43,663 bases of DNA from a phage: sequence record PZ445529.1, one strand, 5' to 3'. Position numbers and translations under genes: made by a program. Positions 1-43,663 of this stretch are shown here, piece after piece. The notes beneath the pieces were generated by a model. It ran no database searches, was not told where the DNA came from, and was given only the letters and a program-made list of their open reading frames with translations. Positions within the stretch are counted from its first letter, which is position 1. Each line of letters begins with the position of its first letter.

Positions 1-121
1 GGGGTGCTGTCCCGCTGTCCCGATCGGCTAAACCCCGCGGCAGCACTGGTGGGGACGGGGTGCTGTCCCGCTTTGTCCCGCCCCTTGTTTGTCCCGCTTT
101 TTGTCCCGCTTAGTTTATGCA
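1..121. repeat. 3' part of copy A of a 169-bp dispersed element; six GTCCCG iteron cores (mostly TGTCCCGC) and a 15-bp direct repeat ggggtgctgtcccgc at 1-15 and 57-71
   Basis: 1-121 is identical to 27667-27787; with 43616-43663 it reconstitutes the full element found intact at 27619-27787. Confidence 0.9.
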
Positions 122-159
122 GTTTTATTGCATAACTATTCAATATATTTACACTACAC

Positions 160-207
160 GGCAACCAATGCGACCAGCTAAAAACACTCGAAATGGCAAC
201 CAATGCG
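160..207. repeat. two copies of 13-bp motif CGCATTGGTTGCC (reverse orientation) at 160-172 and 195-207; a third forward copy lies at 43540-43552
   Basis: Exact 13-mers read directly; they flank element copy A in inverted orientation, just 3' of the primase/helicase gene. Confidence 0.8.
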
Positions 208-215
208 CGCAACAT

Positions 216-2480
216 TTAATCTTTTAAATCATCATCGGTCGCAGAAAGCGTGATGGGTATACTCGTTTTAATGACAATATTCGACGACCCGTAGATGGCC
301 CCGGTGTGCGGATCGGTATAAAAACCGAGCACGCCGCGCTCGACCATATCGTCGATTGCCTTCGTCGATGTGCCACCTTTCGCAAGCCCAGCCTGGCGGA
401 CAATTGCCGATTTACTGAATCCGGTATGGTCCGGGTTATCTTCCATCAGTTTTTCCAGTGCCGCATAAAGCACTTTCTCTTTTTCGTTGCGCGGTCCGGC
501 GGCGTTTTCTTCCTTAACTGCGGCTTTGCCAGCGGCCTTCGCCTGTTCGATGGCGAACGGTGCCAGGGCGACCGGTACGAGGTAAAGAGTCTCGTCGCGT
601 GGCGTGGATGCGATCGGCTTGACGTCCCAACCGGCAACCACATCGCCGAAGTCTGGCCCGGCGCTGGTGGACTGGTGGGCTTCGAACGCTTCGGACTTGC
701 GGAGATCTACCTTAACTTTGCACTTAAGCAGGACGAATCCGCGCGGCGCTTGCTTGATGCCGTTACGCGCCTTTTCGTGATACAGGTTCAATTGTCCGGG
801 CTGGTTGTCGTCCGGTTGTTCCAGGAAGAACGCGGAATCGACAGCACCATGAAGCGCGCCGGACCCGCGAGGCGTTCTGCTGCCGTTTGCACCTTTAGCC
901 GGGTGGTGGATGACGCCCGCACTGCCGCCTGTATTTTCCGCAATGGCCTTCAGCGCCTTGACCACTTCGCCCATATCGCTGGCGTTGTTCTCGTCGAACG
1001 GTTTAGCATCGGCGGACCGCAGCGCAACAGTCTGGTTGAGTGAGTCGAACGCCACCAGGCCAACCGGTTCGCCGTTAGCGGTGCGGTTGATAAAGCTGAT
1101 AACTTCGCGCAAGCCCGACTTGCTGGTGATATCCCAGCCGCGTGATTGCAGGTCAATAATGTGCAGCTTGTCCAGGTCGTGCTCGTATTTGATCTGCAAT
1201 GCTTCCTTACGCTGGTTGGAGGCTTCGCCACCTTCCGCGTCGAAATAGAAGCAATGGGACTGGACGACCTTCGCACCGCCAAACGGGATACCCGCGGCAA
1301 CCGCACCCATCTGCCCCAGCACGTAGAACGATTTACCGATGTTCGACTCACCCGCCATGTACCAGGTCGATTTAAAGTTAATCAACCCCTCGATGATCGG
1401 GTCGTGCTTACTGAACAGCGCAACCGGCTCGTTATCCAGATCCGCATCGGTGCACACGCCGTATTCTTCGCCGTCGCCAACCGCATCAACAATATGTTCA
1501 TATAAGGATTCGACTTCCTCGTCGTCCAGCCCTGGGAGGATGGCGGCGATTTGCTTACGTGACATGTTGTGCGGCTCGACGTTCAGGTGGTCCGGTATCC
1601 CGATAAGACGTAGCGCCAGGTGCTGGTGTCTGTTCAGCTCAGAGCAACACTCGTTGCCGGTGTGCATACACTTGAAACGGATCTCGCCATCCTTGACCAT
1701 AATAGCCGTCGACCCTTCGCCGCTGTGCAGATGTTCGTTCGGGCACGGCACTTCATAACCGCGACCGGAGGATAACTCCTCGAATCCTGCTTGGAAGCAC
1801 CAGTCCAGAATGCCGTCAGCCACTGCGTCGTCGCCCTGGGTAAGCTCGCGGCGTACTTCCTCTTTCTCCACTCCCAGCCTGTCAGCCCGGCGAAGCAGAC
1901 GACGCACACTGGCGCGCTTTCCGTAGTGGCACTTAATGACAGACTGCTGGTGTGGTAGGTACATCAGGCGGTTTGTGTCTTTGGTGCAATCGTCGAAGTC
2001 CACATCAGACAGGCCCAGTTGGTCTAACAGCGCGTACTGGACGCGGCCCAGGTCTTCCGCCGGTACGGGCTTGTCTGTGAGCACAAGGAAACGTGCGCAA
2101 CGCGTGCCGCCTTTCAGCGGGTGGCGGTCGCCGGTTGTTGTATGGAATACGTGCTCCAGCCCCGCATCGATGAAAGCCTTACGGCAGCGGCGCAAGGTGC
2201 GAGTGTCGGTACGGTCGATATCAAAGAACAGGATCGAGCGGTCCACCGCGCTGGTCTTACGGCGTAGGCCGTCACTGGTATATGCCACGATGCCATCGGC
2301 CTTGCGCTTGCGGCGCGCATACTCGGCTTTATCCTCGGTCTTGTTGATATGCACTGATGATATTTCTTTCGCATCATTGATAAATTCGAAAAATTCATCA
2401 GTTGTCATCTGGAAGTTTTCCGCCCTGGCTTTTTCGCCTTTTTTAGCGGGTCTTGTTACAGCGAATTTAATTAAGCTCAT
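216..2480 (-). CDS. bifunctional DNA primase/helicase (primase-type N-terminal region with Cys/His zinc motif, RecA-like P-loop helicase C-terminal region)
   Basis: 754-aa ORF; zinc motif CPNEHLHSGEGS...KCMHTGNECC; Walker A GESNIGKS; VIHHPAKG motif typical of RepA/DnaB-like phage helicases; stop 11 nt after the upstream HTH gene. Confidence 0.8.
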   Translation of the reverse strand: MSLIKFAVTRPAKKGEKARAENFQMTTDEFFEFINDAKEISSVHINKTEDKAEYARRKRKADGIVAYTSDGLRRKTSAVDRSILFFDIDRTDTRTLRRCRKAFIDAGLEHVFHTTTGDRHPLKGGTRCARFLVLTDKPVPAEDLGRVQYALLDQLGLSDVDFDDCTKDTNRLMYLPHQQSVIKCHYGKRASVRRLLRRADRLGVEKEEVRRELTQGDDAVADGILDWCFQAGFEELSSGRGYEVPCPNEHLHSGEGSTAIMVKDGEIRFKCMHTGNECCSELNRHQHLALRLIGIPDHLNVEPHNMSRKQIAAILPGLDDEEVESLYEHIVDAVGDGEEYGVCTDADLDNEPVALFSKHDPIIEGLINFKSTWYMAGESNIGKSFYVLGQMGAVAAGIPFGGAKVVQSHCFYFDAEGGEASNQRKEALQIKYEHDLDKLHIIDLQSRGWDITSKSGLREVISFINRTANGEPVGLVAFDSLNQTVALRSADAKPFDENNASDMGEVVKALKAIAENTGGSAGVIHHPAKGANGSRTPRGSGALHGAVDSAFFLEQPDDNQPGQLNLYHEKARNGIKQAPRGFVLLKCKVKVDLRKSEAFEAHQSTSAGPDFGDVVAGWDVKPIASTPRDETLYLVPVALAPFAIEQAKAAGKAAVKEENAAGPRNEKEKVLYAALEKLMEDNPDHTGFSKSAIVRQAGLAKGGTSTKAIDDMVERGVLGFYTDPHTGAIYGSSNIVIKTSIPITLSATDDDLKD

Positions 2481-2490
2481 TGCCGTTGCC

Positions 2491-2820
2491 TTACTTCGAA
2501 GTTTTGTTATTGCGTACCCAAGAGCGCACGGTGCTTTGGTTAATTCCTGTCAACTCCGCGATCATTGCCCATGACTTCCCCTCATCGCGCAAACGGATAA
2601 CCTGTTTTTTGTATTCTTCCATTTCCTCATTGTGCTTTTGCAGCTTGCTTGCTGCCGTACCGTTGAGTAATTCCAGCTTCGCGCGCAATTCTTTTTCGGT
2701 AAGTCGCAGACGTTCGATCTCAAATAGCACCGCACCCACGGCATCGGTATATGCCCAGGACCGGCTTGTCTCACTGCAAACAGTCTTAGTTAACATTTCG
2801 ATTGCGTCGTCAATATTCAT
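2491..2820 (-). CDS. small helix-turn-helix DNA-binding protein (candidate transcriptional regulator)
   Basis: 109-aa ORF; C-terminal HTH-like segment GKSWAMIAELTGINQSTVRSWV; RBS GGAGA 8 nt upstream of ATG; first gene of the operon with the primase. Confidence 0.65.
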   Translation of the reverse strand: MNIDDAIEMLTKTVCSETSRSWAYTDAVGAVLFEIERLRLTEKELRAKLELLNGTAASKLQKHNEEMEEYKKQVIRLRDEGKSWAMIAELTGINQSTVRSWVRNNKTSK

Positions 2821-2834
2821 TTTTCTGTCTCCGG

Positions 2835-2849
2835 TTGGTTAATGACCAA
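2835..2849. promoter_or_regulatory. operator-like imperfect palindrome TTGGTtaatgACCAA over the predicted transcription start of the HTH gene
   Basis: Inverted TTGGT/ACCAA half-sites; same half-site as the recurring TTGGTTGCA motif. Confidence 0.4.
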
Positions 2850-2851
2850 CG

Positions 2852-2880
2852 AAACTACACCTAAAACCGCGGGGTGTCAA
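2852..2880 (-). promoter_or_regulatory. sigma70-like promoter for the HTH-primase operon (-35 TTGACA, 17-bp spacer, -10 TAGTTT with upstream TG)
   Basis: Reverse complement of 2875-2880 is TTGACA; -10 region is the reverse complement of 2852-2857. Confidence 0.45.
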
Positions 2881-2893
2881 CTCCTTTGGAATA

Positions 2894-2922
2894 TTGAAAC
2901 GGGCGCGCACGCGTGTAATAAT
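2894..2922 (+). promoter_or_regulatory. sigma70-like promoter P1 (-35 TTGAAA, 17-bp spacer, -10 AATAAT with TG), back-to-back with the HTH promoter
   Basis: Hexamers read directly; a terminator lies only about 30-60 nt downstream. Confidence 0.4.
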
Positions 2923-2950
2923 ACTCCCGTCTCATTGTCTCTTATTGGTT

Positions 2951-2985
2951 AGCGCCGTTGCATTTTGCCTCGGCGCTTTTTTTTT
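2951..2985 (+). terminator. Rho-independent terminator (stem agcgccg/cggcgct, 13-nt loop, run of 9 T)
   Basis: Perfect 7-bp GC-rich stem followed by TTTTTTTTT, between promoter P1 and the main early promoter. Confidence 0.6.
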
Positions 2986-2995
2986 AAATTAGTTG

Positions 2996-3025
2996 TTGAC
3001 ACCTATCCTGCAACCAATCTATTAT
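2996..3025 (+). promoter_or_regulatory. main early promoter (-35 TTGACA, 18-bp spacer, -10 TATTAT) with TGCAACCAAT motif in the spacer
   Basis: ttgacacctatcctgcaaccaatctattat; drives the plus-strand early block through a ~195-nt leader. Confidence 0.55.
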
Positions 3026-3221
3026 TCCCCCCGTCGACAGGATGCAGGACGCAAACTGGAGAGGGGCAACGCAGGGGCCGGATCGAAGTGTCAGGATTCC
3101 CAACCGTGATTATATAACCCGGTCCACTACCCGAACGGGAGAACGCGCAACCGGGCAATATGTTAAGGCCACCGACGAAGTTAACTGCCGACACCTAAAC
3201 TTAACCAATCGGAGATATACC

Positions 3222-3728
3222 ATGTTTGAGCAAATCGTAAACCTGATCACTCGCGGCGTAGTAGCACTGGAAACCATCGCAAAGCATTATGAAACTGTTG
3301 GCGCTGCCGTTGGTAAGCAGGAAGACAAGAAGCCGTCTAAGGCCAAAAAAGAAGATGACGACGATGCCGCCGAAGACGAAAAACCGGCTAAAGCTAAAAA
3401 AGCACCGGCGAAAGGTAAGGCCAAAAAAGAAGTCGTAGAAGATGACGACGAAGACGCCGAAGACGAAAAACCGGCTAAGGCTAAAAAAGCACCGGCGAAC
3501 GGCAAAGGTAAGAAAGATGCTGATCCGCTGGCGGAGATGCGCGACGAAATCAAACAGTATGCCGCGATTATCGCCGGTGGTGATGACGACGATGCGAACG
3601 ACGAATTCGACGACCTGCTGGAGTCGTTCGAGATCAAATCAATCGCCAAGCTGGAAGATGACGACGTCGAAGACTTCCACACAGAGTTAAAAGAAATCGT
3701 CGAAACCTATTTCGAACTGGAAGATTAA
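3222..3728 (+). CDS. highly acidic low-complexity protein with alternating D/E and K/A-rich stretches; first gene of the early operon
   Basis: ATG at 3222 with RBS GGAG; 168 aa; contains in-frame 87-bp tandem repeat; upstream part of ORF 3042-3728 judged 5' UTR. Confidence 0.65.
   Translation: MFEQIVNLITRGVVALETIAKHYETVGAAVGKQEDKKPSKAKKEDDDDAAEDEKPAKAKKAPAKGKAKKEVVEDDDEDAEDEKPAKAKKAPANGKGKKDADPLAEMRDEIKQYAAIIAGGDDDDANDEFDDLLESFEIKSIAKLEDDDVEDFHTELKEIVETYFELED
3351..3518. repeat. in-frame tandem repeat (87-bp unit, about 2 copies) encoding EDDD(D/E)A(A/E)DEKPAKAKKAPA(K/N)GK
   Basis: Near-identical units starting 3351 and 3438. Confidence 0.8.
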
Positions 3729-3736
3729 TATATTCC

Positions 3737-3763
3737 GGCCCGCTAATCTGCGGGCCTCTTTTT
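3737..3763 (+). terminator. Rho-independent terminator (ggcccgc-taatct-gcgggcc followed by tcttttt)
   Basis: Perfect 7-bp stem plus T-run 9 nt after the stop of the acidic-protein gene. Confidence 0.7.
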
Positions 3764-3776
3764 AGAGGACGAGACA

Positions 3777-4028
3777 ATGGCACGCTTCACGCTAATCGAG
3801 GCGGTGGACTCCCGCGACCAGCGCCCGTATTATTGGCTATTCGAACGCATCGGCAATTTTCAGTCACGCGTTGCCGTAATAGATAAACGCCGCAATACTC
3901 CCGCGCAAATTAAGCGCACCACCTTTATTAATCCCGACTTTTATATTTGGGCAGACTCCAATCTGGAATATGTTCGCTTTGCAGTTGCATCCGAAGCAAG
4001 AACGATTGACCGCTGGGAGACGAAATAA
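3777..4028 (+). CDS. hypothetical protein (83 aa)
   Basis: ORF with RBS GAGG 8 nt upstream; stop overlaps next start (TAATG). Confidence 0.55.
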   Translation: MARFTLIEAVDSRDQRPYYWLFERIGNFQSRVAVIDKRRNTPAQIKRTTFINPDFYIWADSNLEYVRFAVASEARTIDRWETK

Positions 4029-4207
4029 TGAAATTCTTCGTGCTGGCAACATGCCACGAATTAGACGATCACACTTCTTTTATTGTTGAAAACACCAACG
4101 CAAGCAATTGCTTTGTGGACGCGCAAAATGAAGTTAAGCGCCGAGTCGAAAAAGCGGGCCTGGCGAATGTGAAATATGTAATTGTCCAGTTTACACGGGT
4201 GGAATAA
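4028..4207 (+). CDS. hypothetical small protein (59 aa), below the ORF-track size cut-off
   Basis: Hand-translated MKFFVLATCHELDDHTSFIVEN...; start overlaps upstream stop and stop overlaps downstream start (TAATG both ends). Confidence 0.45.
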   Translation: MKFFVLATCHELDDHTSFIVENTNASNCFVDAQNEVKRRVEKAGLANVKYVIVQFTRVE

Positions 4208-5637
4208 TGGCGATTAAACCAAAACGTAAAACGCAATCCGGTAGCAATACGGAACACTCATTACTCGGCCCGTCCGGTGCTAAAAAATGGATGGGTTGCC
4301 CTGCCGCCCTGGTGGTGGAAAAAGATATCCCGAACGAATCCGGGCAGGCGGCGATTAACGGTACGAGTATGCACACCGTATCTGAAGTCGTGCTAAACCG
4401 CATTATCGCCGGTGAAAAGCGGATAACAGCAAAGACGTATAAAGGATGTTACGTCGAGAATGAAGGCAAGGGGCCAGTAAAGGCGCACCCGAAAGCGCCG
4501 AAAGGCGGCGTACTGGTCAATGACGACATGGTGAAACAGTGCGATGCATACATCGACCACTGGCGCCCGCTCCTCGAAGTGGCGGAGTTTGTTCAGCTTG
4601 AGATGCGCGCCGATCTGACCCGCGTCCTTCATTCAGGCTTCGAGATCGACGGCAACAGGATTAAAACGTTCGGCACTGCCGATATGGTCATGGTCATGAA
4701 GAAGACCGACGGCACGTACATGCTGATTGTTGGCGACCTGAAGACGGGGCGGCATAAGGTCGAGGCGAAAGAAAACAAACAGCTTATGTTGTACGCGCTC
4801 GGCCTGCTGCGCAAGCTGCAATACATGTACGACATTACGACCGTGCGTCTGGTTATCTTCCAGCCATATTGTGGCGGGGCGTCGGAGTGGGATATTACAG
4901 TGGAAGCGCTGGAGATATTCGCGAAGTTTGCGTCCAAGCGTGCAATCGCCGCCCTGGAAGCGTACACCCGCGGCAAGAAGGGACTAACCCGCGCCGACTT
5001 CCGACCCAGCGTTGATGCGTGCCAGTGGTGCCGATTTGCGGACCAATGTAGTGCCCGGGCGAAGGCCGCAATCGACACGATGACACCACCAACGGCAACC
5101 GACGAAGACCTGGGCGACGACGTGAGTATCGCTACAGAGGAGGAATGCGCCAACCACGATCGCAATATGGCCCGCGAAGCCCGGAAGGCGGCACGACGTG
5201 CGAAGCGAGGCAAGAAAGAAGCGGCCCCCGGCGCTATGAGCGCGGCTGAACTGCGCAAGGCTTATGAAGGTCTGGACGCAATGCGCCAGCACATCAAAGC
5301 AATCGAGTCCGCGGTATTTAAGGCTGTGATGGCGGGTGATGGCGAATCGCTTGGCCTCAAGATGGTTGCCGGTAAGGAAGGGATCCGCAAGTGGGCGGAC
5401 GAGAGCGAAGTGATTGAAATCTTCACGAAGGCCCGGATCAAGCGCGATGTGATGTACAAAGAAACATTGCTCAGCCCTACTGATGCCGAGAAGGTACTGA
5501 AGGACGAGAAACCGAAAGTATGGGCGAAGCTGTGTGATAAAATCACGCGCGCACCGGCAAAACCGGTATTAGCACCAATCGACGATCCGCGCCCTGCGTG
5601 GTCGGAAGCTACTGACGAGGACTTAAGCAATGAATAA
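4207..5637 (+). CDS. PD-(D/E)xK exonuclease of the Cas4/RecB-like phage type (DUF2800-like)
   Basis: 476 aa; nuclease-core motifs GTADMVMV...IVGDLKTGRH; C-terminal Cys cluster CQWCRFADQC typical of Cas4-type nucleases; sits beside a putative SSB. Confidence 0.7.
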   Translation: MAIKPKRKTQSGSNTEHSLLGPSGAKKWMGCPAALVVEKDIPNESGQAAINGTSMHTVSEVVLNRIIAGEKRITAKTYKGCYVENEGKGPVKAHPKAPKGGVLVNDDMVKQCDAYIDHWRPLLEVAEFVQLEMRADLTRVLHSGFEIDGNRIKTFGTADMVMVMKKTDGTYMLIVGDLKTGRHKVEAKENKQLMLYALGLLRKLQYMYDITTVRLVIFQPYCGGASEWDITVEALEIFAKFASKRAIAALEAYTRGKKGLTRADFRPSVDACQWCRFADQCSARAKAAIDTMTPPTATDEDLGDDVSIATEEECANHDRNMAREARKAARRAKRGKKEAAPGAMSAAELRKAYEGLDAMRQHIKAIESAVFKAVMAGDGESLGLKMVAGKEGIRKWADESEVIEIFTKARIKRDVMYKETLLSPTDAEKVLKDEKPKVWAKLCDKITRAPAKPVLAPIDDPRPAWSEATDEDLSNE

Positions 5638-5872
5638 AGTATTCGCAATCTTATTGATGTTTTTGCTCGGCGCGCTGGGCTTTCTCCTGCATTGCGTGCA
5701 AGGCGTGTTAATGGTGGCCTGGATGATTCGCCATCCAACCCAATGGCTTGATGACGGCTATAGCGAAGCTGCCGTCGATTGGGTGGCGAAGAACATTAAC
5801 CGCCCGCCGTTAAGCTGGATCGAGAACGCGACCAACTACGTTACCAGAAATCTTTTTAATGAAAATGCTTGA
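5630..5872 (+). CDS. small membrane protein (80 aa, N-terminal transmembrane helix)
   Basis: Hydrophobic N-terminus ILLMFLLGALGFLLHCV; RBS GAGGA 9 nt upstream; ATG overlaps upstream gene end. Confidence 0.5.
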   Translation: MNKVFAILLMFLLGALGFLLHCVQGVLMVAWMIRHPTQWLDDGYSEAAVDWVAKNINRPPLSWIENATNYVTRNLFNENA

Positions 5873-5961
5873 CCGCTTAGGCACAACCAAGTAGATTAGC
5901 AACCAAGCCGGACGGGGTGGCTTCCAATAACCCCGATACATGTGAAATGAGGAATTGGAAA

Positions 5962-6690: not shown

Positions 6691-6708
6691 GGGCAAAGCC
6701 CACTATTC

Positions 6709-6733
6709 AAGCCCGCTTAATGCGGGCTTTTTA
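6709..6733 (+). terminator. Rho-independent terminator (aagcccgc-ttaat-gcgggctt + TTTTT)
   Basis: Perfect 8-bp stem and T-run 19 nt after the SSB stop. Confidence 0.7.
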
Positions 6734-6748
6734 ATAGGACAATGAAAA

Positions 6749-9207: not shown

Positions 9208-9220
9208 CGGAAATAAGATT

Positions 9221-9861: not shown

Positions 9862-9901
9862 CGGTATAGTGTGCCGGTTAGCCATATCGAGGATTTTAGA
9901 G

Positions 9902-34210: not shown

Positions 34211-34212
34211 CG

Positions 34213-37266: not shown

Positions 37267-37276
37267 GGTCGTTTCC

Positions 37277-38662: not shown

Positions 38663-39234
38663 TATTCACCCTGGCCTTTGCCGGAAGGTTCCACTACGAC
38701 GTCGCCGTTATCATCTTCGTCGTCATCCAGCGGCACATCGTCGCGGACGCCGTGGTTTGCTTTAAGCAGGAATGTTGCGAAGCCCGCCGCGATGGTCACG
38801 CCGCCAGCTTCCATCAGGAAGGTTTTTTGTAACTCCATTGCGTCCGCCATCGCCTCAGCGAACTCCTCATGCGCACGCGCCCAGCGATACAGGCAAGCTA
38901 CGCCCACGCCGATTTCCGCGGCAAATCGACCGAAGGTTGGCATTTTGTTGCGGGGGATTACTTGCGCAGCGCCTTTAGCGGAGTAGTTGACCTGCCAGGC
39001 GTCGGCGTCGGCGAAATAGCGACGAAGCTGGTCGCAGTAAACGGATCGGTAGTCAGTAGGGCGTCCACATTTGCCGCCTTTACGACGCTTTCCGTACTCG
39101 ATCTCCGGTCCGAGATTAGTATGCTCGGTTTGCTCGCCTGGTTTACGGCGCGGGGTTACCGCCACTCGTCCGTCCAGTTTGGCGCGTCGGCCCTTAACTT
39201 TGATTTCTGCCATGATATAAGCCCTTTTGTTCAT
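38662..39234 (-). CDS. terminase small subunit
   Basis: HTH-like FGRFAAEIGVGVACLYRWARAHEEF; start uncertain (ATG 39234 or 39213; longer GTG-initiated ORF to 39312 seems unlikely). Confidence 0.6.
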   Translation of the reverse strand: MNKRAYIMAEIKVKGRRAKLDGRVAVTPRRKPGEQTEHTNLGPEIEYGKRRKGGKCGRPTDYRSVYCDQLRRYFADADAWQVNYSAKGAAQVIPRNKMPTFGRFAAEIGVGVACLYRWARAHEEFAEAMADAMELQKTFLMEAGGVTIAAGFATFLLKANHGVRDDVPLDDDEDDNGDVVVEPSGKGQGE

Positions 39235-39343
39235 ATGCGCCGACCATCGGCAACATAGGAGACGGCCCTGCCATCTAACGGGGATTATAACAGGCACAAA
39301 AAAGCCCACCAAATCGGCAGGCTGGGAGGGGTACGGGTTGCCG

Positions 39344-40486
39344 TTACTTCAACATTTCCGGGCTAATGGTTAAGCGCGCTACTTCGCCGTAATTGGCGCT
39401 GTAGGTGATGACGTTGGCACTGCGGCCGGACATCCAACCGCCGCGGCTTGCGTATGCGTCTTTCGCTGCGAGTGTCCGGTGCTGTTCAACAATCATGTTG
39501 CGGGATTCTACAATCTTCTGGTGGTGCAAGTGGCCTACGTGCGCGTAGCTGTACTCACTGGACCCGAAAGCCTGTCTGAATTTAGAAATCATAACCTGCT
39601 CGATCGCATCGAATCGCGCTTTGTGCCCGTGGTGGAAGAATAGCGTGGTCTTGCCGTGCTGCACCATTTTGTAGACGTCAGGGGACGTATCCACATCGAC
39701 GCGCGGCTCGTTCTCGTACAGAGTATTGAACATCTCAGCCAGCCAAATCATACCCGACTCGTCATGATTCCCCTGGACGATTAGCAGTTTGACTTTGTGG
39801 TGTTTTTGCAGCGCCAGGTCTACCACGTTACGCACCATGCGAATCATGTAGCGGACCAACTTCTGGTATCGGGTATCTGCGTCCAGTATGTGACCACTGG
39901 CAGGAGTGACGGCATCGAGGCTATCAAAGTGCGCCATATCACCGAGGATATTAATCACGGCAGTGCCTGCGTCCGGTGCGCGTGCGAAGGCTTCGACAAA
40001 CCAGCGGTAAAACAGGTCTTCGGCGATCGCCATATCCCAGTCCTCGCCAGTCTCCTCGCCCCAGGCCAACATGCCCAGGTGGAAGTCGGACACGGTGTAC
40101 AGGTTGAGTAGGTCAAGTGCCTGGATCGGGACTGGTGGGGCGCTTACTGGTGCTGCCGGTGTGATCTCGCTGTTCATACCCTCGACAACGGCGCGCATTG
40201 CTTCAAGCTGGCGCTCCTTGTCCTGCTCAGTGATAACCCACGACATGACCTCTTCGCCATTGCCGCGTACCAGGGCGGATACGCGCTTAACACCAAAGCC
40301 ATCGGCAACGCGCTTACGGATTACATCATCGTTACCATGACCAATACCTTTCTTCGACAGGCGGGCTTTGCGCATGTAGACATTTCGGAGGGAAAGGCCG
40401 TACTTCTTAGAAATCTCTTTCGATGTAGCGCCGGATTGTAATTCAGCAATCAATTGCTCGTCGGTGATTTTAGTTTGCGGGTGCAT
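39344..40486 (-). CDS. HTH domain fused to calcineurin-like metallophosphoesterase
   Basis: 380 aa; N-terminal HTH-like GATSKEISKKYGLSLRNVY; metallophosphatase motifs DFHLG, GDMAHFD, GNHDE, HHGH, GHLHH. Confidence 0.7.
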   Translation of the reverse strand: MHPQTKITDEQLIAELQSGATSKEISKKYGLSLRNVYMRKARLSKKGIGHGNDDVIRKRVADGFGVKRVSALVRGNGEEVMSWVITEQDKERQLEAMRAVVEGMNSEITPAAPVSAPPVPIQALDLLNLYTVSDFHLGMLAWGEETGEDWDMAIAEDLFYRWFVEAFARAPDAGTAVINILGDMAHFDSLDAVTPASGHILDADTRYQKLVRYMIRMVRNVVDLALQKHHKVKLLIVQGNHDESGMIWLAEMFNTLYENEPRVDVDTSPDVYKMVQHGKTTLFFHHGHKARFDAIEQVMISKFRQAFGSSEYSYAHVGHLHHQKIVESRNMIVEQHRTLAAKDAYASRGGWMSGRSANVITYSANYGEVARLTISPEMLK

Positions 40487-40547
40487 ATTAATTCACTTCC
40501 AGATTATGGGACCGAGGACAATATACCACGGCCCATATTGTGGCGGG

Positions 40548-40628
40548 TTATAGCAATTCGCAAATAACCATACCGATAAACGCTGCGGCGGACCAGATTG
40601 CCAATACCCAAATATCATTACGTGCCAT
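40548..40628 (-). CDS. small hydrophobic peptide (26 aa) with strong RBS
   Basis: Hand-translated MARNDIWVLAIWSAAAFIGMVICELL; GAGGAG 8 nt upstream. Confidence 0.35.
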   Translation of the reverse strand: MARNDIWVLAIWSAAAFIGMVICELL

Positions 40629-40658
40629 AGTGTAATACTCCTCTTGTTGATTGGTCGC

Positions 40659-40688
40659 AGTATGGCGTCTATGTTGGTTGCAAGTCAA
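40659..40688 (-). promoter_or_regulatory. sigma70-like promoter (-35 TTGACT, 18-bp spacer, -10 CATACT) with TGCAACCAA motif at the -35
   Basis: Reverse complement of 40659-40688; sits just after the terminator that follows the Ig-like gene. Confidence 0.4.
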
Positions 40689-40690
40689 GC

Positions 40691-40718
40691 AATAAAAAGC
40701 CCGGAATTAACCGGGCTT
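40691..40718 (-). terminator. Rho-independent terminator after the Ig-like gene
   Basis: aagcccgg-ttaatt-ccgggctt followed by TTTTTATT on the minus strand. Confidence 0.7.
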
Positions 40719-40724
40719 GTGGTT

Positions 40725-41138
40725 TTATTCTTCTGCTCCCGTTACGGTGAAGATGGCGGACGCCATCGCCCCGCCTCCATCAGATGCCACCCAAAAGATG
40801 TGAGCGCTACCTGCCGTTTGGGGTGTGATTTTGCCGGTAGTCTGATCGATTTCCGCACAGGCAGGATTCGACGACACCCACTTCCCTGCCTTGTTAGTTG
40901 CGTCGGATGGCTGTACCGCAACCGAAGCGGCGGCCTTTGCACCAACTGCGGCGGATTTCGGTGTGATAGTTACGGTGGCACTTGTCACCGGCTTACTTTC
41001 CGGCGGGCTGGGTAACTTCGCGTCGAATACCCCCGCATGGCTGATCGTATCCGCTACAATAGCGCGTGCGCCTGGGTCTTCGGTTTTAGCCAGCGCGGCG
41101 AGCGCGTCGGCGTTATGATCAAGAATACTTTTTAACAT
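40725..41138 (-). CDS. bacterial Ig-like (Big_2-type) domain protein, 137 aa
   Basis: VTITPKSAAVGAKAAASVAVQPSDATNKAGKWVSSNP...TAGSAHIFWVASDGG resembles Big_2 domains; downstream of endolysin. Confidence 0.55.
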   Translation of the reverse strand: MLKSILDHNADALAALAKTEDPGARAIVADTISHAGVFDAKLPSPPESKPVTSATVTITPKSAAVGAKAAASVAVQPSDATNKAGKWVSSNPACAEIDQTTGKITPQTAGSAHIFWVASDGGGAMASAIFTVTGAEE

Positions 41139-41154
41139 ACTGTGTTACCCCGTA

Positions 41155-41646
41155 TTATGCTGCGTTACGTCCGATCTTCTCGGCAACGTCCCACTGCTTA
41201 CCATCGAATAGCGCCTGCCTGCCGATTGCTCGACGGACTAACCCCTTCAGCACTTCCCCACCTTGCTTGCGGAATTGTGGCAGTATAGCCCGCACCTTTG
41301 CCCAGTCGCCCCGGCGGATCGCATCGTCGAAATCACCGGCTACGTCGTCCGGCATGATCGGACCAGGACCGGCATTGATTACCAGGTCCACCAGCGCGTC
41401 GAATTGCGCCTGATTGATGCTCGGGTGTGCGTACTTGTTCACCCAGTTCTCGGCATATGCCACATCGCGCTTGAGTAGCTCCAGTGCTTCCGCACGGGTA
41501 ATGCTTCGTGGCGGAGTAGTGCCAGTGTGCCCATAACCCCAGGTGTACAGGCCGCGGGCCTGCTCTTTCTTGGTCGCGAAATACGGCACCGGGCTGAAAG
41601 CCTCCCATGCTGCCGTAAATCGTAGACCGTTATCACTGAATCGCAT
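41155..41646 (-). CDS. endolysin (T4-lysozyme-like muramidase)
   Basis: 163 aa; N-terminal EAFSPVPY and TWGYGHT motifs. Confidence 0.75.
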   Translation of the reverse strand: MRFSDNGLRFTAAWEAFSPVPYFATKKEQARGLYTWGYGHTGTTPPRSITRAEALELLKRDVAYAENWVNKYAHPSINQAQFDALVDLVINAGPGPIMPDDVAGDFDDAIRRGDWAKVRAILPQFRKQGGEVLKGLVRRAIGRQALFDGKQWDVAEKIGRNAA

Positions 41647-41878
41647 GTTTTACCCCATTCAAAACAGCATTACGCAGCGTGCGCAATGCAAACAGCCAGA
41701 TTAACGCGGTCCAGGTGGTATCTGATACGTCTCCCGTTTGCAACAGCCCGACAATACAGGTCATTGCTGTTAGCAGATATAACACCCGACCGAAGAAGCC
41801 ATCCTGAACGGACGGCGCATACACGTTAAACAGGGACGAAGCCCCTATGATAACAAACAACAGGACGGAGATAATCAT
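41633..41878 (-). CDS. second membrane protein of the lysis cassette (holin/antiholin-like)
   Basis: 81 aa MIISVLLFVIIGASSLF...; ATG overlaps holin stop (ATGA). Confidence 0.5.
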   Translation of the reverse strand: MIISVLLFVIIGASSLFNVYAPSVQDGFFGRVLYLLTAMTCIVGLLQTGDVSDTTWTALIWLFALRTLRNAVLNGVKHAIQ

Positions 41879-42165
41879 TTTGCGCCCCCCGGAAGGTGTA
41901 GCGTCGCAATTGTCTCCCGGATCCGGTCGGCGATTGGCATCCAGAAGATGGCAGTTACGAAGCCCAAACCGGCGACAGTGCGCTCGCCAGACAAACCAGA
42001 CCACTCGGCAATAGCTGGCGCACCAAATATGGCACACAGGAAGCCAACTACGACATATAAAACGAAGTTCAACGGCCCTTTCGTTGCCTCGCCGTGAATG
42101 CGTGCGCCCACGAAGCCACCAGCAAGACACGCAAGGGCGAATAACCACTCGTTTAGCTTATCCAT
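41875..42165 (-). CDS. holin (three predicted TM segments, charged C-terminus)
   Basis: 96 aa; hydrophobic segments WLFALACLAGGFVGA, FVLYVVVGFLCAIFGAPAIA, VAGLGFVTAIFWMPI; immediately upstream of endolysin. Confidence 0.6.
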   Translation of the reverse strand: MDKLNEWLFALACLAGGFVGARIHGEATKGPLNFVLYVVVGFLCAIFGAPAIAEWSGLSGERTVAGLGFVTAIFWMPIADRIRETIATLHLPGGAK

Positions 42166-42200
42166 AAAAAAGTCCCAGTAAGTTTTAGCTCACTGGGACT
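42166..42200 (-). terminator. intrinsic terminator (9-bp stem, 12-nt loop, TTTTTT) abutting the holin start codon
   Basis: Minus strand agtcccagt-gagctaaaactt-actgggact-tttttt-ATG. Confidence 0.6.
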
Positions 42201-42217
42201 ATATCACGCTTGCGTAA

Positions 42218-42391
42218 TTAATCGAAAATGGACCACTTACCGACGCCTTTCCATTCCCACCCTTCCGATCGGACGGCCTCGAACATCCTGCCCCCTATCA
42301 TATCCCGATACCATAGCCACCACATGCGCAACCTGGTAGGGTGCTCCGTGATACCACGGCGCTTGTATACCTCGAACGTCATGCGGGCCAT
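42218..42391 (-). CDS. hypothetical small protein (57 aa)
   Basis: ATG-initiated ORF overlapping upstream ORF end; no clear RBS. Confidence 0.3.
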   Translation of the reverse strand: MARMTFEVYKRRGITEHPTRLRMWWLWYRDMIGGRMFEAVRSEGWEWKGVGKWSIFD

Positions 42392-42480
42392 ACGACGAAC
42401 ATCAGGATGCCAAACAGCACCGCGGTAAGCAGGCACAGCCCGCAGATCAAACCAAACCAATAAATCACATCATGAATCAT
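42379..42480 (-). CDS. small hydrophobic peptide (33 aa)
   Basis: Hand-translated MIHDVIYWFGLICGLCLLTAVLFGILMFVVWPA; overlaps neighbours by about 12 nt. Confidence 0.3.
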   Translation of the reverse strand: MIHDVIYWFGLICGLCLLTAVLFGILMFVVWPA

Positions 42481-42595
42481 AATCTGCCCCATAGGTATTT
42501 AGCCAGACTACCGCGAAGACGTATAGCATCGAATTGCCCCTACCGCCTATCTCAAAGCGGTTGTGCATCAGCATATCACGGATAGCCACACTCAT
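42470..42595 (-). CDS. hypothetical small protein (41 aa)
   Basis: Hand-translated ORF; stop overlaps next start. Confidence 0.25.
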   Translation of the reverse strand: MSVAIRDMLMHNRFEIGGRGNSMLYVFAVVWLNTYGADYDS

Positions 42596-42626
42596 TTCAG
42601 AATCACCGAGCGCGGGTCAATGGCGT

Positions 42627-42818
42627 TCATGCTGCCGTCACGGCATCAAAGCGATTGACTATCTCATGCGTGACAATATCGTATTTCTCCGGCAGCTTTG
42701 CCTTACTCGCCCACCAGACACGATCGCTTGCGGCGTGGTGCAAGCGGACGTGTGCCGCAAGGGTCTGTATTGGCCTCAGGATTTTGCCATCTGCTTTACG
42801 GCGGAATAGTAATTTCAT
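42627..42818 (-). CDS. hypothetical protein (63 aa)
   Basis: ORF; start overlaps upstream stop. Confidence 0.45.
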   Translation of the reverse strand: MKLLFRRKADGKILRPIQTLAAHVRLHHAASDRVWWASKAKLPEKYDIVTHEIVNRFDAVTAA

Positions 42819-43084
42819 TTGCTCAGTCTCCAGTGTTTGCCTACCCGCTCAACGGCGGGCTTCCGGCGTAATGTAATACGGATCCCCATTGGTTGCAAGG
42901 AGGTCCGCACCCTGAAATCGTGTTGTGCTGCGAACTGGTGCAAGTAGCGAGTCTGCGTCAACGGCTTTACGTCGTCGCGATAGCACCAGAATACAGATTC
43001 ACCCTCAACCGCATTCTCAGCCCATATTCGTATGCAATGCAGGGGAATATGCCACGAAAGCTGTTTGGCGCGCCTACGGCTCAT
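42815..43084 (-). CDS. hypothetical basic protein (89 aa)
   Basis: ORF 10 nt after upstream stop. Confidence 0.45.
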   Translation of the reverse strand: MSRRRAKQLSWHIPLHCIRIWAENAVEGESVFWCYRDDVKPLTQTRYLHQFAAQHDFRVRTSLQPMGIRITLRRKPAVERVGKHWRLSK

Positions 43085-43093
43085 TTTGGCCCC

Positions 43094-43399
43094 TTATTTC
43101 GCAAGCTGGGCGAATAGTTCGCGCTGGGCTTTAATCCGGGCGACGTTTGTCACTGCCGTCTCACCGATCCCGAAGCGATACGCCAGGCGCTCACGGGCAA
43201 ATGCCTTGGCATATTCGTGAATTGCCATACGCAACGGCTTCAGGTCATCCAGGCTGGCGTCCATGCGGTAGAGCGCGTCACGAATTGATTGGTGCGCCAG
43301 TACCGCAATCTGCAGCGCCTGGTCTACGTTGCCGTTCAGTGCTTTCGCTTCTTCCAGCTTTGCCACGGCCAGGGTGTAATTCCAGATAATTGCTTTCAT
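43094..43399 (-). CDS. hypothetical protein (101 aa), first gene of the minus-strand operon leading into the lysis cassette
   Basis: ATG with RBS AGGA; promoter immediately upstream. Confidence 0.5.
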   Translation of the reverse strand: MKAIIWNYTLAVAKLEEAKALNGNVDQALQIAVLAHQSIRDALYRMDASLDDLKPLRMAIHEYAKAFARERLAYRFGIGETAVTNVARIKAQRELFAQLAK

Positions 43400-43427
43400 T
43401 GTTCAGTCCTCATGTTGGTGTGCAACC

Positions 43428-43456
43428 AATATAGCAAGGTGCCAGGCCGGATGCAA
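43428..43456 (-). promoter_or_regulatory. sigma70-like promoter (-35 TTGCAT, 17-bp spacer, -10 TATATT) with two ATTGGTTGCA copies
   Basis: Reverse complement gives ttgcat-ccggcctggcaccttgc-tatatt; shares an identical 21-mer with the promoter at 33388-33416. Confidence 0.55.
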
Positions 43457-43539
43457 CCAATATTAATCACGCGCATGAAAAAGTTGATCGCTATCTGCTG
43501 AGACTGCAAACCGCATTTTTCACTCAACATAATACAACC

Positions 43540-43552
43540 CGCATTGGTTGCC
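43540..43552. repeat. forward copy of CGCATTGGTTGCC motif
   Basis: Exact match to the reverse complement of 160-172 and 195-207. Confidence 0.8.
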
Positions 43553-43615
43553 TAGTTCCGCGACGACCGCAATCCGCAACATGCTGCCGTGTATTTTGCA
43601 ATCCAGGATTTTATG

Positions 43616-43663
43616 CAGTCTCAGACGAGGGGGGCCACTGACCCCCGTCTAGTCTGAAAGACT
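43616..43663. repeat. 5' part of copy A of the 169-bp element (imperfect GC-rich palindrome cagtctcagacgaggggggccactgacccccgtctagtctgaaagact)
   Basis: 43616-43663 is identical to 27619-27666; window end joins window start seamlessly as in copy B. Confidence 0.9.

What the first reader, a model, noticed from the sequence alone, without database searches (positions are those of the whole stretch)
1..43663. Window closes on itself: a complete phage genome linearised inside a repeated element
The last 48 bp and first 121 bp are contiguous in the internal copy at 27619-27787, so joining the ends recreates an intact element. Gene content is a full phage complement (replication, lysis, packaging, head, tail) with no integrase, excisionase or CI-like repressor found, suggesting a virulent or non-integrating lifestyle. 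Short direct terminal repeats collapsed by assembly were considered but cannot explain the second internal copy with different flanks.
Basis: partly seen in the sequence, partly recalled or inferred. Interest (0 to 1): 0.45.

Follow-up and report, generated by a model that had tools for sequence, protein, structure and literature searches.

The report
Complete Dhillonvirus genome cut in repeat
The window is one complete, circularly closing genome of an ordinary virulent E. coli siphophage (genus Dhillonvirus) whose sequence record happens to be cut open inside one of two copies of a conserved non-coding repeat element that is probably a replication or regulatory site.

Summary
The last 48 bp plus the first 121 bp reproduce 27619-27787 without a mismatch. 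In the relative SECphi18 the two window ends map to adjacent bases, so joining them loses and adds nothing.

The window is a full-length, collinear Dhillonvirus (SO-1/HK578-like) genome, about 92-94% identical to more than 150 database phages. It has no lysogeny genes and no match in 5,426 complete E. coli genomes. Published read analyses of two members of the genus report headful, permuted packaging. The junction is therefore an arbitrary cut, most likely placed by the assembler at a repeat, not a virion end.

The repeated element is already annotated in phage SO-1 as "region A" and "region B", without a tested function. Each copy has a long GC hairpin, six same-strand TGTCCCG repeats and a very AT-rich stretch.

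New here:
- Two related phage lineages also carry two clusters, but of different repeat motifs.
- The two copies exchange sequence. They are 100% identical here against about 84% in most relatives.
- The adjacent helicase-primase ends in a winged-helix domain.

My favoured function is an iteron-type origin with a second copy, at about 0.4. Overall this is an ordinary new member of a known genus.

The parts
43616..43663 (.). Left 48 bp of the junction copy (copy B) of the repeat
   Evidence: Identical to 27619-27666.
1..121 (.). Right 121 bp of the junction copy (copy B)
   Evidence: Identical to 27667-27787. Weaker similarity continues to 142 (D3).
27619..27787 (.). Internal copy (copy A), 169 bp exact
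27552..27860 (.). Region A: the whole non-coding gap between the tail-chaperone frameshift ORF (stop near 27861) and the tape-measure start (27551)
   Evidence: Frame translations. Corresponds to SO-1 'region A', 11214-11597, between gp16 and the tape-measure gene.
43400..43663 (.). Region B, left part: non-coding, between the junction and the next minus-strand gene (43094-43399)
   Evidence: Corresponds to SO-1 'region B', 40178-40657.
1..215 (.). Region B, right part: non-coding, from the junction to the stop of the helicase-primase gene (216)
27619..27667 (.). Long imperfect GC-rich hairpin that includes the small AGTCT-GAA-AGACT hairpin. The same sequence lies at 43616-43663 plus base 1.
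   Evidence: Free energy -28.4 kcal/mol. Stems invariant and the large loop variable in 30 distinct copies. No T-run follows, so it is not a canonical intrinsic terminator.
27674..27775 (+). Six same-orientation TGTCCCG(C) repeats (iterons) in copy A, starting at 27674, 27682, 27730, 27740, 27756 and 27768, with a 35-bp centre between the 2nd and 3rd
   Evidence: Motif census: 18 forward, 0 reverse, 13 of them inside the two regions. The GTCCCG cores are invariant in 30 copies.
8..109 (+). The same six repeats in copy B, starting at 8, 16, 64, 74, 90 and 102
27774..27813 (.). AT-rich 40 bp next to the repeats (copy A), containing TTTATGCA
   Evidence: GC 30%, within the lowest 0.5% of 40-nt windows of the genome.
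108..147 (.). AT-rich 40 bp next to the repeats (copy B), with the inverted repeat TTATGCA-N6-TGCATAA
   Evidence: GC 25%, within the lowest 0.08% of 40-nt windows.
27821..27852 (.). Extra inverted or palindromic half-sites (GGGACAAAACGGGACGTCCCG..TGTCCCGC), present in region A only
   Evidence: (I6).
216..2480 (-). Replicative helicase-primase, 754 aa, immediately upstream of region B in the direction of transcription
   Evidence: Pfam AAA_25 (RepA-type helicase) at residues 357-531. phrog_3228 'replicative helicase-primase' over the full length.
270..485 (-). C-terminal winged-helix domain of the helicase-primase (residues 666-737)
   Evidence: AlphaFold2 with a 47-sequence alignment gives pLDDT about 80-90 and an H-b-H-H-b-b topology. 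Foldseek top hits are mostly winged-helix proteins, none significant.
2491..2820 (-). 109-aa coiled-coil plus helix-turn-helix protein just upstream of the helicase-primase. It is the alternative candidate binder of the repeats.
   Evidence: Pfam HTH_23, Sigma70_r4_2 and HTH_28. It is conserved wherever the repeat motif is conserved.
24909..27551 (-). Tape-measure gene, directly downstream of region A
27861..28548 (-). Tail assembly chaperone G (28171-28548) and its frameshift extension T (to about 27861), directly upstream of region A
   Evidence: (translations).
37277..39312 (-). Large terminase (37277-38662) and small terminase (38662-39312)
   Evidence: Terminase_6N/6C; weak GP3_package/Sf6_terminase matches. 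phrog_3064. There is no TGTCCCG repeat in or beside the small-terminase gene.
43428..43456 (-). Promoter-like TTGCAT-N17-TATATT with two ATTGGTTGC boxes, 30-60 bp upstream of the first gene after region B
   Evidence: Read directly from the sequence. The consensus scan did not score it because its first hexamer matches only 3 of 6. A similar arrangement is seen in L025.

Best explanation
SHOWN. The window is one complete genome of a virulent siphophage of the genus Dhillonvirus (SO-1/HK578-like). It is written as a linear string whose cut point lies inside 'region B', the non-coding region just downstream of the replicative helicase-primase gene. Region B shares a 169-bp core with 'region A', which lies 16 kb away between the tail-chaperone and tape-measure genes. 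For that reason the two ends of the window read through as one intact internal copy.

INFERRED FROM RELATIVES. These phages package by headful from concatemers, so virion DNA is circularly permuted and terminally redundant. Reads then assemble into a circle and the cut point is arbitrary. Here it probably fell in the repeat because a 169-bp exact repeat is a branch point for a short-read assembler.

THE ELEMENT. Each copy is built as follows: a long GC hairpin, 2 TGTCCCG repeats, a 35-bp centre, 4 more repeats, then an extremely AT-rich 40 bp. The two copies are kept alike by gene conversion, and in this genome copy B has been fully overwritten.

MOST LIKELY FUNCTION (inferred, about 0.4). The element is an iteron-type replication origin next to the helicase-primase gene. 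Either the winged-helix C-terminus of that enzyme or the small helix-turn-helix protein encoded beside it would bind the repeats and open the AT-rich stretch. Region A would be a second origin or a distant cis-acting partner.
For: Closure: exact 169-bp identity; window ends adjacent in SECphi18 with reciprocal spanning of cut points; junction contiguous in 124 records.

Identity of the phage: 92-94% nucleotide identity over 92-98% of the window to more than 150 Dhillonvirus records.

Lifestyle: no lysogeny domains; no match in complete E. coli genomes.

Packaging: PhageTerm reported headful, permuted genomes for Opt-212 (PMC9022532) and BF9 (PMC10059673). The small terminase gives weak P22 gp3 / Sf6-type matches.

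Assemblers stumble here: other records begin or end in or near the element. Kente ends in A. CHD5UKE2 starts in A. PNS1 starts beside A and has a roughly 125-bp end overlap. BEK2-2 lacks about 515 bp there. eiAU is cut inside its equivalent region.

Element known: SO-1 repeat_region A and B, present at two or more places in all 159 matching records.

Anatomy and conservation.

Gene conversion: A/B identity is 100% here, 95.3% in SM_W22 (whose B also carries the A-type centre), 89.5% in TH11 and about 84% in five others. LM40P1's two copies share lineage-specific changes.

Origin-like features: repeats next to the most AT-poor-in-GC windows of the genome. The position directly after the helicase-primase gene is kept in eiAU, L025 and VLCpiS11a. 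The repeat motif differs between lineages (GTCCCGC, TCGCCCCG, CTCGCAA), and so do the winged-helix domain and the small HTH protein. Two clusters per genome are seen in all three lineages. The winged-helix fold is predicted with confidence.
Against: No reads or virion DNA are available, so headful packaging is borrowed from two relatives, and the reason for the cut point is a guess.

The perfect identity of the two copies could be an assembly collapse rather than biology.

For the origin idea there is no binding or replication evidence at all. GC skew follows gene orientation only and shows nothing at A or B. The winged-helix hits are generic and not significant, with E above 0.09, and P4 alpha is not among them. 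The small HTH protein fits the co-variation equally well. All repeats point in the direction of late transcription and both copies sit at operon boundaries, which fits a transcriptional role just as well.
Confidence: 0.85

Rival explanations
1. The element is a transcription control cassette, not an origin. The hairpin would stop or process transcripts coming from the helicase-primase operon (copy B) and from the tail tube/chaperone genes (copy A). The repeats would be binding sites for a phage activator or repressor that sets late-gene expression, giving two late units, B to A and A to the tail fibres.
For: Both copies lie between genes of the same long minus-strand gene array, at functional boundaries. 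All repeats have one orientation relative to transcription. Several depositors annotated a 'terminator' here (HK578, WFI, WF5505, PTXU06). The neighbouring 109-aa protein has a sigma-70 region-4-like HTH. Promoter-like sites with ATTGGTTGC boxes follow region B. In VLCpiS11a the second cluster sits in front of the head genes.
Against: The hairpin has no T/U tract on either strand and is not called as a terminator. No good sigma-70 promoter is found within the shared core. An extremely AT-rich block beside direct repeats, and placement right after the replication gene, are more typical of origins.
Confidence: 0.3
2. The perfect 169-bp identity of the two copies is an assembly artefact. The real phage would have an ordinary B-type centre, and the assembler merged two similar paths into one consensus used twice.
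For: In six of eight genomes compared, A and B differ at 10-16% of positions and share exact runs of only 23-44 bp. The window's shared sequence is a mosaic: an A-like centre with a B-like right end relative to its nearest relative SECphi18. Independent bubble merging would produce exactly that. No IMG/VR contig has a B left flank with an A-type centre, against 13 with the B-type centre.
Against: SM_W22, sequenced independently, also has the A-type centre in region B but keeps 8 differences between its copies, which a collapse would not leave. TH11 and LM40P1 show partial homogenisation. The window keeps distinct flanks right up to the edges of the alignable core.
Confidence: 0.25
3. The element is a packaging signal (pac) bound by the small terminase, and the junction reflects a real, preferred DNA end.
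For: Several database records are cut in or near one of the two regions. Repeated short boxes are typical of pac sites such as those of P1 and SPP1 (own knowledge).
Against: The cut points differ from record to record and look like assembly features: a 125-bp overlap in PNS1 and a 515-bp gap in BEK2-2. Most records were deliberately re-set to start at the small-terminase gene. There are no TGTCCCG repeats in or beside that gene, where P22/Sf6-type pac sites lie. Two pac sites in direct orientation 16 kb apart have no precedent that I know of.
Confidence: 0.07
4. The window has fixed physical ends at the junction (short direct terminal repeats or cohesive ends), or it is an excerpt of a larger replicon or prophage.
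For: None, beyond the fact that the record is linear.
Against: The ends do not repeat each other. The junction is internal and contiguous in 124 relatives. Gene content and length equal those of complete relatives. There is no match in E. coli chromosomes or plasmids. Headful packaging is reported for the genus.
Confidence: 0.03

Closest known systems
Sodalis phage SO-1 'region A' and 'region B' (GenBank GQ502199 repeat_region features)
   Same: Same two positions: after gp16, before the tape-measure gene; and after the helicase-primase gene. The DNA is 87-88% identical, with the same mix of direct, inverted and palindromic repeats.
   Different: In SO-1 the two copies are about 84% identical, with distinct centres. 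Here they are 100% identical over 169 bp. I found no experimental work on it.
Headful (pac) packaging with circular permutation and terminal redundancy, as in P22, Sf6 and P1
   Same: The assembly closes into a circle, the record has no terminal repeat, the small terminase gives weak P22 gp3 / Sf6-like matches, and PhageTerm results for two genus members report headful packaging.
   Different: Not shown for this phage. The pac site is unknown.
Satellite phage P4: alpha primase-helicase with a C-terminal origin-binding domain, and its two cis sites ori and crr (own knowledge)
   Same: One polypeptide combines primase, helicase and a C-terminal DNA-binding domain. There are two separated clusters of the same short repeat on one genome.
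   Different: The helicase here is RepA/AAA_25-type, not superfamily 3. There is no significant structural match to P4 alpha. Binding and the requirement for both sites are untested.
SaPI Rep/ori and iteron plasmids or lambda ori: initiator gene followed by repeats flanking or adjoining an AT-rich region (own knowledge)
   Same: The repeats lie directly downstream of the replication gene, beside the AT-richest stretch of the genome. Direct repeats are combined with inverted half-sites, and the repeat motif changes between lineages along with the candidate binding proteins.
   Different: A second full copy sits inside the tail operon, and a conserved long GC hairpin is part of the unit. There is no functional evidence.
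Lambda nutL/nutR or HK022 putL/putR: two-copy cis elements acting as RNA (own knowledge)
   Same: Two copies per genome in the direction of transcription. There is a small hairpin with an invariant loop (AGUCU-UUC-AGACU).
   Different: Six repeats and an AT-rich block are not nut- or put-like. There is no Rfam match, the overall fold is not unusually stable (z = -1.7), and there are no compensatory changes because the stems never vary.
T7-type short direct terminal repeats
   Same: A repeat of 150-200 bp that involves the ends of the record.
   Different: The second copy is internal, with its own flanks, and the two ends are different halves of one copy rather than two copies.

Membership tests
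Genus Dhillonvirus (SO-1 / HK578-like siphophages) | Nucleotide similarity well above the 70% genus threshold across the genome | tested here: met
   90.6-93.7% identity over 92-98% of each window half, to more than 150 records. Seven fetched genomes cover 76-98% of the window.
Genus Dhillonvirus (SO-1 / HK578-like siphophages) | Shared gene order and content: terminase-head-tail arm, divergent replication arm, helicase-primase | tested here: met
   Collinear with SECphi18 round the circle. Same genes as SO-1 and SSL-2009a. Only 9244-9572 and 18105-18304 are absent from all seven relatives.
Virulent (non-temperate) phage | No integrase, excisionase, CI/Cro-type switch or partition genes | tested here: met
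   Pfam and PHROG scans (40 queries on 34 distinct ORFs) found none. The 'transposase' label belongs to a 109-aa HTH protein without a catalytic domain. Not every small ORF was scanned. For the rest I rely on the annotation of SSL-2009a, which covers 98% of the window.
Virulent (non-temperate) phage | Not found as a prophage in host genomes | tested here: met
   The portal/terminase region has no megablast match in 5,426 complete E. coli genomes.
Headful-packaging, circularly permuted genomes | The assembly closes into a circle with no fixed terminal repeat | tested here: met
Headful-packaging, circularly permuted genomes | Dispersed read starts or a submolar pac fragment in virion DNA | not testable with these tools
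   No reads or DNA are available. Reported for relatives Opt-212 and BF9 only.
Short direct terminal repeat genomes (T7-like) | The same sequence at both ends of the virion DNA or record | tested here: not met
   The first 121 bp and the last 48 bp are different parts of one element. The only other copy is internal.
SO-1 region A / region B repeat element | Two copies: one between the tail chaperone and tape-measure genes, one after the helicase-primase gene | tested here: met
   27552-27860, and 43400-43663 plus 1-215.
SO-1 region A / region B repeat element | Sequence similarity to the SO-1 regions | tested here: met
   The 195-bp core is 90.9% (A) and 88.1% (B) identical to SO-1. The 271-bp query gives 87.0% for A.
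Iteron-type replication origin | Three or more direct repeats of one short motif | tested here: met
   Six TGTCCCG per copy, all on one strand. 13 of the 18 genomic occurrences lie in the two regions, against 3.7 expected per strand genome-wide.
Iteron-type replication origin | An adjacent AT-rich, easily melted stretch | tested here: met
   GC 25% and 30% over 40 nt, within the lowest 0.08% and 0.5% of windows.
Iteron-type replication origin | A cognate initiator protein that binds the repeats | not testable with these tools
   There are candidates only: the winged-helix C-terminus of the helicase-primase and the adjacent HTH protein. Both change where the repeat motif changes.
Iteron-type replication origin | Replication starts there | not testable with these tools
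   GC skew is uninformative because it follows gene strand.
Intrinsic (Rho-independent) terminator | GC-rich hairpin followed at once by a T/U run | tested here: not met
   The hairpin is present (-28.4 kcal/mol) but no T-run follows on either strand. The scan found no terminator at the element: none in 27300-28300 or 1-400, and the one site in 43000-43663 (43551-43534) lies outside the hairpin.
Known structured RNA families (Rfam) | Match to a curated covariance model | tested here: not met
   No matches at gathering thresholds over the whole window.

The most novel reading that the evidence does not exclude
Dhillonviruses and their relatives (Eiauvirus and a Klebsiella Guernseyvirinae phage) share a two-copy cis-module made of lineage-specific repeats, a long hairpin and an AT-rich block. 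One copy always follows the helicase-primase gene, and the other sits at a variable site inside the late operon. The most novel reading is that this module is a bipartite replication origin. It would work either as an origin plus a distant enhancer, like P4 ori/crr, or as twin origins. It would be read by the winged-helix tail of a RepA-type helicase-primase, and its copies would be kept matched by frequent gene conversion. Such an arrangement has not been described for virulent siphophages.
Probability: 0.3. Interest if true: 0.5.

Novelty: new member of a known kind. Interest (0 to 1): 0.25.

Why it matters
For the finding as stated, very little. It confirms that the window can be treated as a finished, circularly permuted genome of a strictly lytic coliphage, probably a new species of a well-sampled genus. 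It also shows that coordinate 1 has no biological meaning.

There are two practical lessons. First, the 169-bp exact repeat is a trap for assemblers, and several deposited Dhillonvirus records are cut, overlapped or incomplete at these regions. Second, the identity of the two copies should be checked against reads.

The repeat itself is the part worth an experiment. It is universal in the genus, was annotated in 2009, has never been explained, and appears as a two-copy design with different motifs in three lineages. If it is the replication origin, it would give a handle on how this very common group of therapeutic-candidate phages starts DNA synthesis. It would also be a clean natural example of concerted evolution of two cis-sites within a 44-kb virus.

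Tried and rejected
- Rfam scan of the whole window: nothing. tRNA/tmRNA: none.
- Terminator and promoter scans of both regions: none at the hairpin; the one terminator-like site found (43551-43534) is outside it. The only weak promoter-like hits are no better than a few in shuffles.
- Folding of the 201-nt element as RNA (gene-sense strand) and as DNA: z = -1.7 and -1.9, so only the hairpin stands out.
- GC skew as an origin marker: it switches only where gene orientation switches, near 3 kb and 16 kb.
- Sequence search of the helicase-primase against PDB chains: only a marginal RepA hit, E = 0.53.
- Foldseek of the C-terminal model: top hits are mostly winged-helix proteins, none significant, and no P4 alpha hit. 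This supports a DNA-binding fold but not membership of any initiator family.
- Tracing the source contig through exact protein look-ups (helicase-primase, large terminase): not on record.
- The idea that the window start marks a de Bruijn edge at k = 121. The start is exactly 121 nt before the end of the exact repeat. This is suggestive but cannot be checked, and I gave it no weight.
- The idea that an A-type centre in region B is unique to this window. It held in IMG/VR (0 against 13 contigs), but phage SM_W22 overturned it.
- The idea that record cut points near region A mark real DNA ends. I rejected it after finding an overlap in PNS1 and a gap in BEK2-2.
- Literature searches for Dhillonvirus transcription or origin data found nothing relevant. 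Grose & Casjens 2014 is not held.
- The element has no match in E. coli genomes or plasmids.

Full report
OBSERVATION. The ends of the window and the internal site were read directly. The last 48 bases occur only at 43616 and 27619. The first 121 bases occur only at 1 and 27667. Together they equal 27619-27787, 169 bp without a mismatch. With mismatches allowed, the similarity runs 43611..142 against 27614..27808 (families D3 and D7). The two ends are not copies of each other, so the record has no terminal repeat. Chance cannot produce a 169-bp exact repeat in 43.7 kb.

WHAT THE WINDOW IS. Both halves match more than 150 phages of the genus Dhillonvirus (SO-1, HK578, SSL-2009a, SECphi18 and others). 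Identity is 90.6-93.7% over 92-98% of the query, and no record is identical. Against SECphi18 the window is collinear round the whole circle. Window 42816-43663 aligns to 3920-3086 and window 1-3030 to 3085-1, so the two window ends fall on adjacent bases of the relative. Conversely, SECphi18's own cut point falls inside window 3030-3720, where the window is continuous. A 947-bp query across the junction is covered in one place by 124 records. SSL-2009a covers 98.2% of the window. Only 9244-9572 and 18105-18304 are missing from all seven fetched relatives. Those two stretches encode a protein of unknown function (phrog_17187) and part of a membrane-associated protein. The window is therefore a complete genome and not an excerpt.

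LIFESTYLE. The RefSeq annotation of SSL-2009a lists terminase, portal, head, tail, lysis and replication genes, and no integrase, excisionase or repressor. Pfam and PHROG scans of the window ORFs tested (40 queries on 34 distinct ORFs) gave no lysogeny domain. The PHROG label 'transposase' attaches to a 109-aa protein that has only a helix-turn-helix domain (HTH_23 / Sigma70_r4_2). The portal/terminase region has no match in 5,426 complete E. coli genomes. There are no tRNAs and no Rfam families.

WHY IT CLOSES, AND WHY THE CUT IS HERE. Two independent papers report read-based (PhageTerm) evidence for headful, permuted packaging in Dhillonviruses. Opt-212 and its relatives 'assembled into circles' (PMC9022532). 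[quoted passage not shown] The small terminase here gives weak P22-gp3 / Sf6-type matches. A circular assembly with an arbitrary start is therefore the expected outcome, and the junction is not a virion end.

The cut probably lies in the repeat because a 169-bp exact repeat is a branch point in a short-read assembly graph. In other genus members the longest exact run shared by the two copies is only 23-77 bp. Other deposited records show the same weakness:
- Kente ends inside region A.
- CHD5UKE2 starts in region A.
- PNS1 starts beside region A and carries a roughly 125-bp end overlap.
- BEK2-2 lacks about 515 bp there, which holds the tail-chaperone genes.
- The linear eiAU record is cut inside its equivalent region.
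The positions differ from record to record, so they do not mark a common physical end.

THE REPEATED ELEMENT IS ALREADY ON RECORD. GenBank GQ502199 (Sodalis phage SO-1) annotates two repeat_regions. 'Region A' (11214-11597) lies between gp16 and the tape-measure gene. 'Region B' (40178-40657) lies after the helicase-primase gene. The window's two copies sit in exactly these places. All 159 matching records contain the element at two or more places. It has no match in E. coli genomes or plasmids.

ANATOMY (plus strand; genes on both sides run on the minus strand).
1. A long imperfect hairpin: CAGTCTCAGACG-x-GGGGG / loop / CCCCCGTCTAG..., enclosing a small hairpin AGTCT-GAA-AGACT. Its free energy is -28.4 kcal/mol.
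2. Two TGTCCCGC repeats.
3. A 35-bp centre that ends in an inverted half-site (GGGAC).
4. Four more repeats.
5. A 40-bp stretch of 25% GC (copy B) or 30% GC (copy A), within the lowest 0.08% and 0.5% of windows in a 54.7% GC genome. It contains TTTATGCA, and in copy B the inverted repeat TTATGCA-N6-TGCATAA.

TGTCCCG occurs 18 times on the plus strand and never on the minus strand, and 13 of those occurrences lie in the two regions. Across 30 distinct copies from 20 or so genomes the following are invariant: the hairpin stems, the small hairpin including its loop, all six GTCCCG cores, and TTTATGCA. The large loop, the spacers and the centre vary. The hairpin has no T-run on either side and is not scored as a terminator. 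The element as a whole does not fold unusually well (z = -1.7 and -1.9).

THE TWO COPIES EXCHANGE SEQUENCE. In most genomes A and B have recognisably different centres. The A type is GATCGGCT.AAACCCGCGGCAGCACTGGCGGGGAC and the B type is GCTCCTCG.CCAGGCCGCGTCATCCGGGGCGGGACA. Over the 169-bp core, A/B identity within a genome is as follows:
- about 84% in SECphi18, A144, SO-1, SSL-2009a and LM40P1;
- 89.5% in TH11;
- 95.3% in SM_W22;
- 100% in this window.

The window's copy B carries the A-type centre. No IMG/VR contig does so, against 13 with the B type. The independently sequenced SM_W22 does, while keeping 8 differences between its copies. The most divergent genome, LM40P1, has lineage-specific changes present in both of its copies (GGCGGGACGTCCCG in place of GGGGTGCTGTCCCG). 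This pattern indicates recurrent gene conversion. I cannot exclude that the perfect identity in this window is an assembler's merged consensus, and I put that at about 0.25. The shared sequence is a mosaic of an A-like centre and a B-like right end relative to SECphi18, which either process could produce.

THE DESIGN IS OLDER THAN THE SEQUENCE.
- A metagenomic relative with a 68%-identical helicase-primase (L025) has the same repeats and hairpins after that gene.
- Edwardsiella phage eiAU (Eiauvirus) has long non-coding gaps at both positions. They share a 52-bp segment, a different repeat (TCGCCCCG) and a similar GC hairpin.
- Klebsiella phage VLCpiS11a (Guernseyvirinae; helicase-primase 49% identical) has yet another repeat, CTCGCAA, again in two clusters. 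One follows the helicase-primase gene (5036-5280). The other lies between the head-morphogenesis and spanin genes (35684-35899). The two clusters share 40 nt at 92% identity, and each has its own long hairpin.

The conserved features are therefore two copies, one of them anchored to the helicase-primase gene, and a motif that changes with the lineage.

WHO MIGHT READ IT. The helicase-primase (754 aa) has a RepA-type AAA_25 core. AlphaFold2 with a 47-sequence alignment predicts a C-terminal domain (residues 666-737) with the topology of a winged helix at pLDDT about 80-90. Foldseek top hits against the PDB are mostly winged-helix proteins (MarR family, histone H1, ORC, LexA), none significant (E above 0.09), and no P4 alpha hit. 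Its putative recognition region is conserved among genomes with GTCCCGC repeats and differs in eiAU and VLCpiS11a. The same holds for the small HTH protein encoded just upstream, which those two phages replace with an unrelated XRE-type HTH protein. The data do not distinguish the two candidates.

MECHANISM. I favour an iteron-type origin, at about 0.4. The reasons are direct repeats plus inverted half-sites, placement beside the AT-richest DNA in the genome and directly downstream of the replication gene, and lineage-specific motifs. This is the layout of lambda ori, iteron plasmids and SaPI ori. The pairing of two distant clusters with a primase-helicase that carries its own DNA-binding domain recalls P4 ori/crr and alpha. 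These comparisons come from my own knowledge and were not tested here.

The main rival, at about 0.3, is a transcription cassette. The hairpin would act as a stop or processing site at two operon boundaries, and the repeats as regulator sites. This fits the single orientation of the repeats, the positions of the copies, and the 'terminator' labels some depositors gave. A packaging role is unlikely (about 0.07). GC skew gives no help, because it tracks gene strand.

VERDICT. This is a complete, circularly closing genome of a virulent Dhillonvirus, a new member of a known genus, at about 92-94% identity to its nearest records. It is cut at an arbitrary point inside an element that was already annotated but never characterised. 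As a finding it is ordinary. The two-copy element and its concerted evolution are a modestly interesting lead for experiments.

Noticed in passing
window 161, 196, 3010, 12723, 12740, 14644, 17406, 33401, 33414, 42888, 43422, 43453, 43543: The 9-mer ATTGGTTGC (either strand) occurs 13 times against about 0.2 expected, almost always between genes and often in pairs. At 43428-43456 (minus strand) and 12728-12756 (plus strand) it overlaps a TTGCAT-N17-TATATT promoter-like site. The core TTGGTTGC is also enriched in eiAU, L025 and VLCpiS11a, although their small HTH proteins differ. It may be a conserved promoter or operator box.
   Followed up: partly
window 16650-16896: Tandem 21/42-bp repeats (GTCTGCGTCTTGATGG CCTGCGTATCCGTCTTGATCTGGTTC) lie inside the 531-aa tail-fibre gene (15821-17416, minus strand). 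They probably encode a repeated fibre shaft motif.
   Followed up: no
window 3340-3670 and 6510-6680: Runs of acidic GAT/GAC/GAA codons alternate with lysine/alanine-rich units in the 228-aa protein (3042-3728) and at the C-terminus of the Enc34-type ssDNA-binding protein (5917-6690). These are low-complexity tails.
   Followed up: no
window 11763-12402: The DNA methyltransferase that is a single 231-aa gene in SSL-2009a appears here as two overlapping ORFs (11763-12053 and 12019-12402). The second matches only positions 106-218 of the PHROG model. This is a possible frameshift, pseudogene or sequencing error.
   Followed up: partly
window 9221-9583: A 120-aa ORF after the DNA polymerase gene is absent from all seven fetched relatives. 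It matches phrog_17187 (unknown function) and sits at a variable slot that holds an HNH endonuclease in SO-1.
   Followed up: partly
L029/L030 (BEK2-2, MN158213), L031/L032 (PNS1, NC_073063), L007 (TH11, MT446389): Deposited 'complete' relatives have defects at region A. BEK2-2 lacks about 515 bp, covering most of the tail-chaperone genes, between its two ends. PNS1 carries a roughly 125-bp end overlap. The unverified TH11 record has region A twice, 515 bp apart.
   Followed up: partly
L022 (Klebsiella phage VLCpiS11a) 5036-5280 and 35684-35899; L024 (eiAU) 26894-27792 and 42120-43015/1-222: More distant relatives also have two clusters of a lineage-specific short repeat (CTCGCAA; TCGCCCCG). 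One cluster always follows the helicase-primase gene. The second is at a different place in VLCpiS11a than in Dhillonvirus and eiAU.
   Followed up: partly
L026/L028 (Escherichia phage SM_W22, PP920555): This is a second phage whose region B carries the A-type centre, with 95.3% A/B identity. It is independent evidence for conversion between the two copies.
   Followed up: yes
phage records MG065648 (Campylobacter phage A144) and OQ221563 (Acinetobacter phage NJ01): These records are labelled with non-enterobacterial hosts but are ordinary Dhillonviruses at 85-97% identity to coliphages. Likely explanations are mislabelled hosts or contaminants.
   Followed up: no
one search hit list (P0026-P0103): Many helicase-primase homologues (44% identical) are filed as 'AAA family ATPase [Salmonella enterica]' on contigs of 41-45 kb. 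These are whole Jersey-like phage genomes sitting in bacterial assemblies. That could reflect carrier-state infection or contamination rather than prophages.
   Followed up: no
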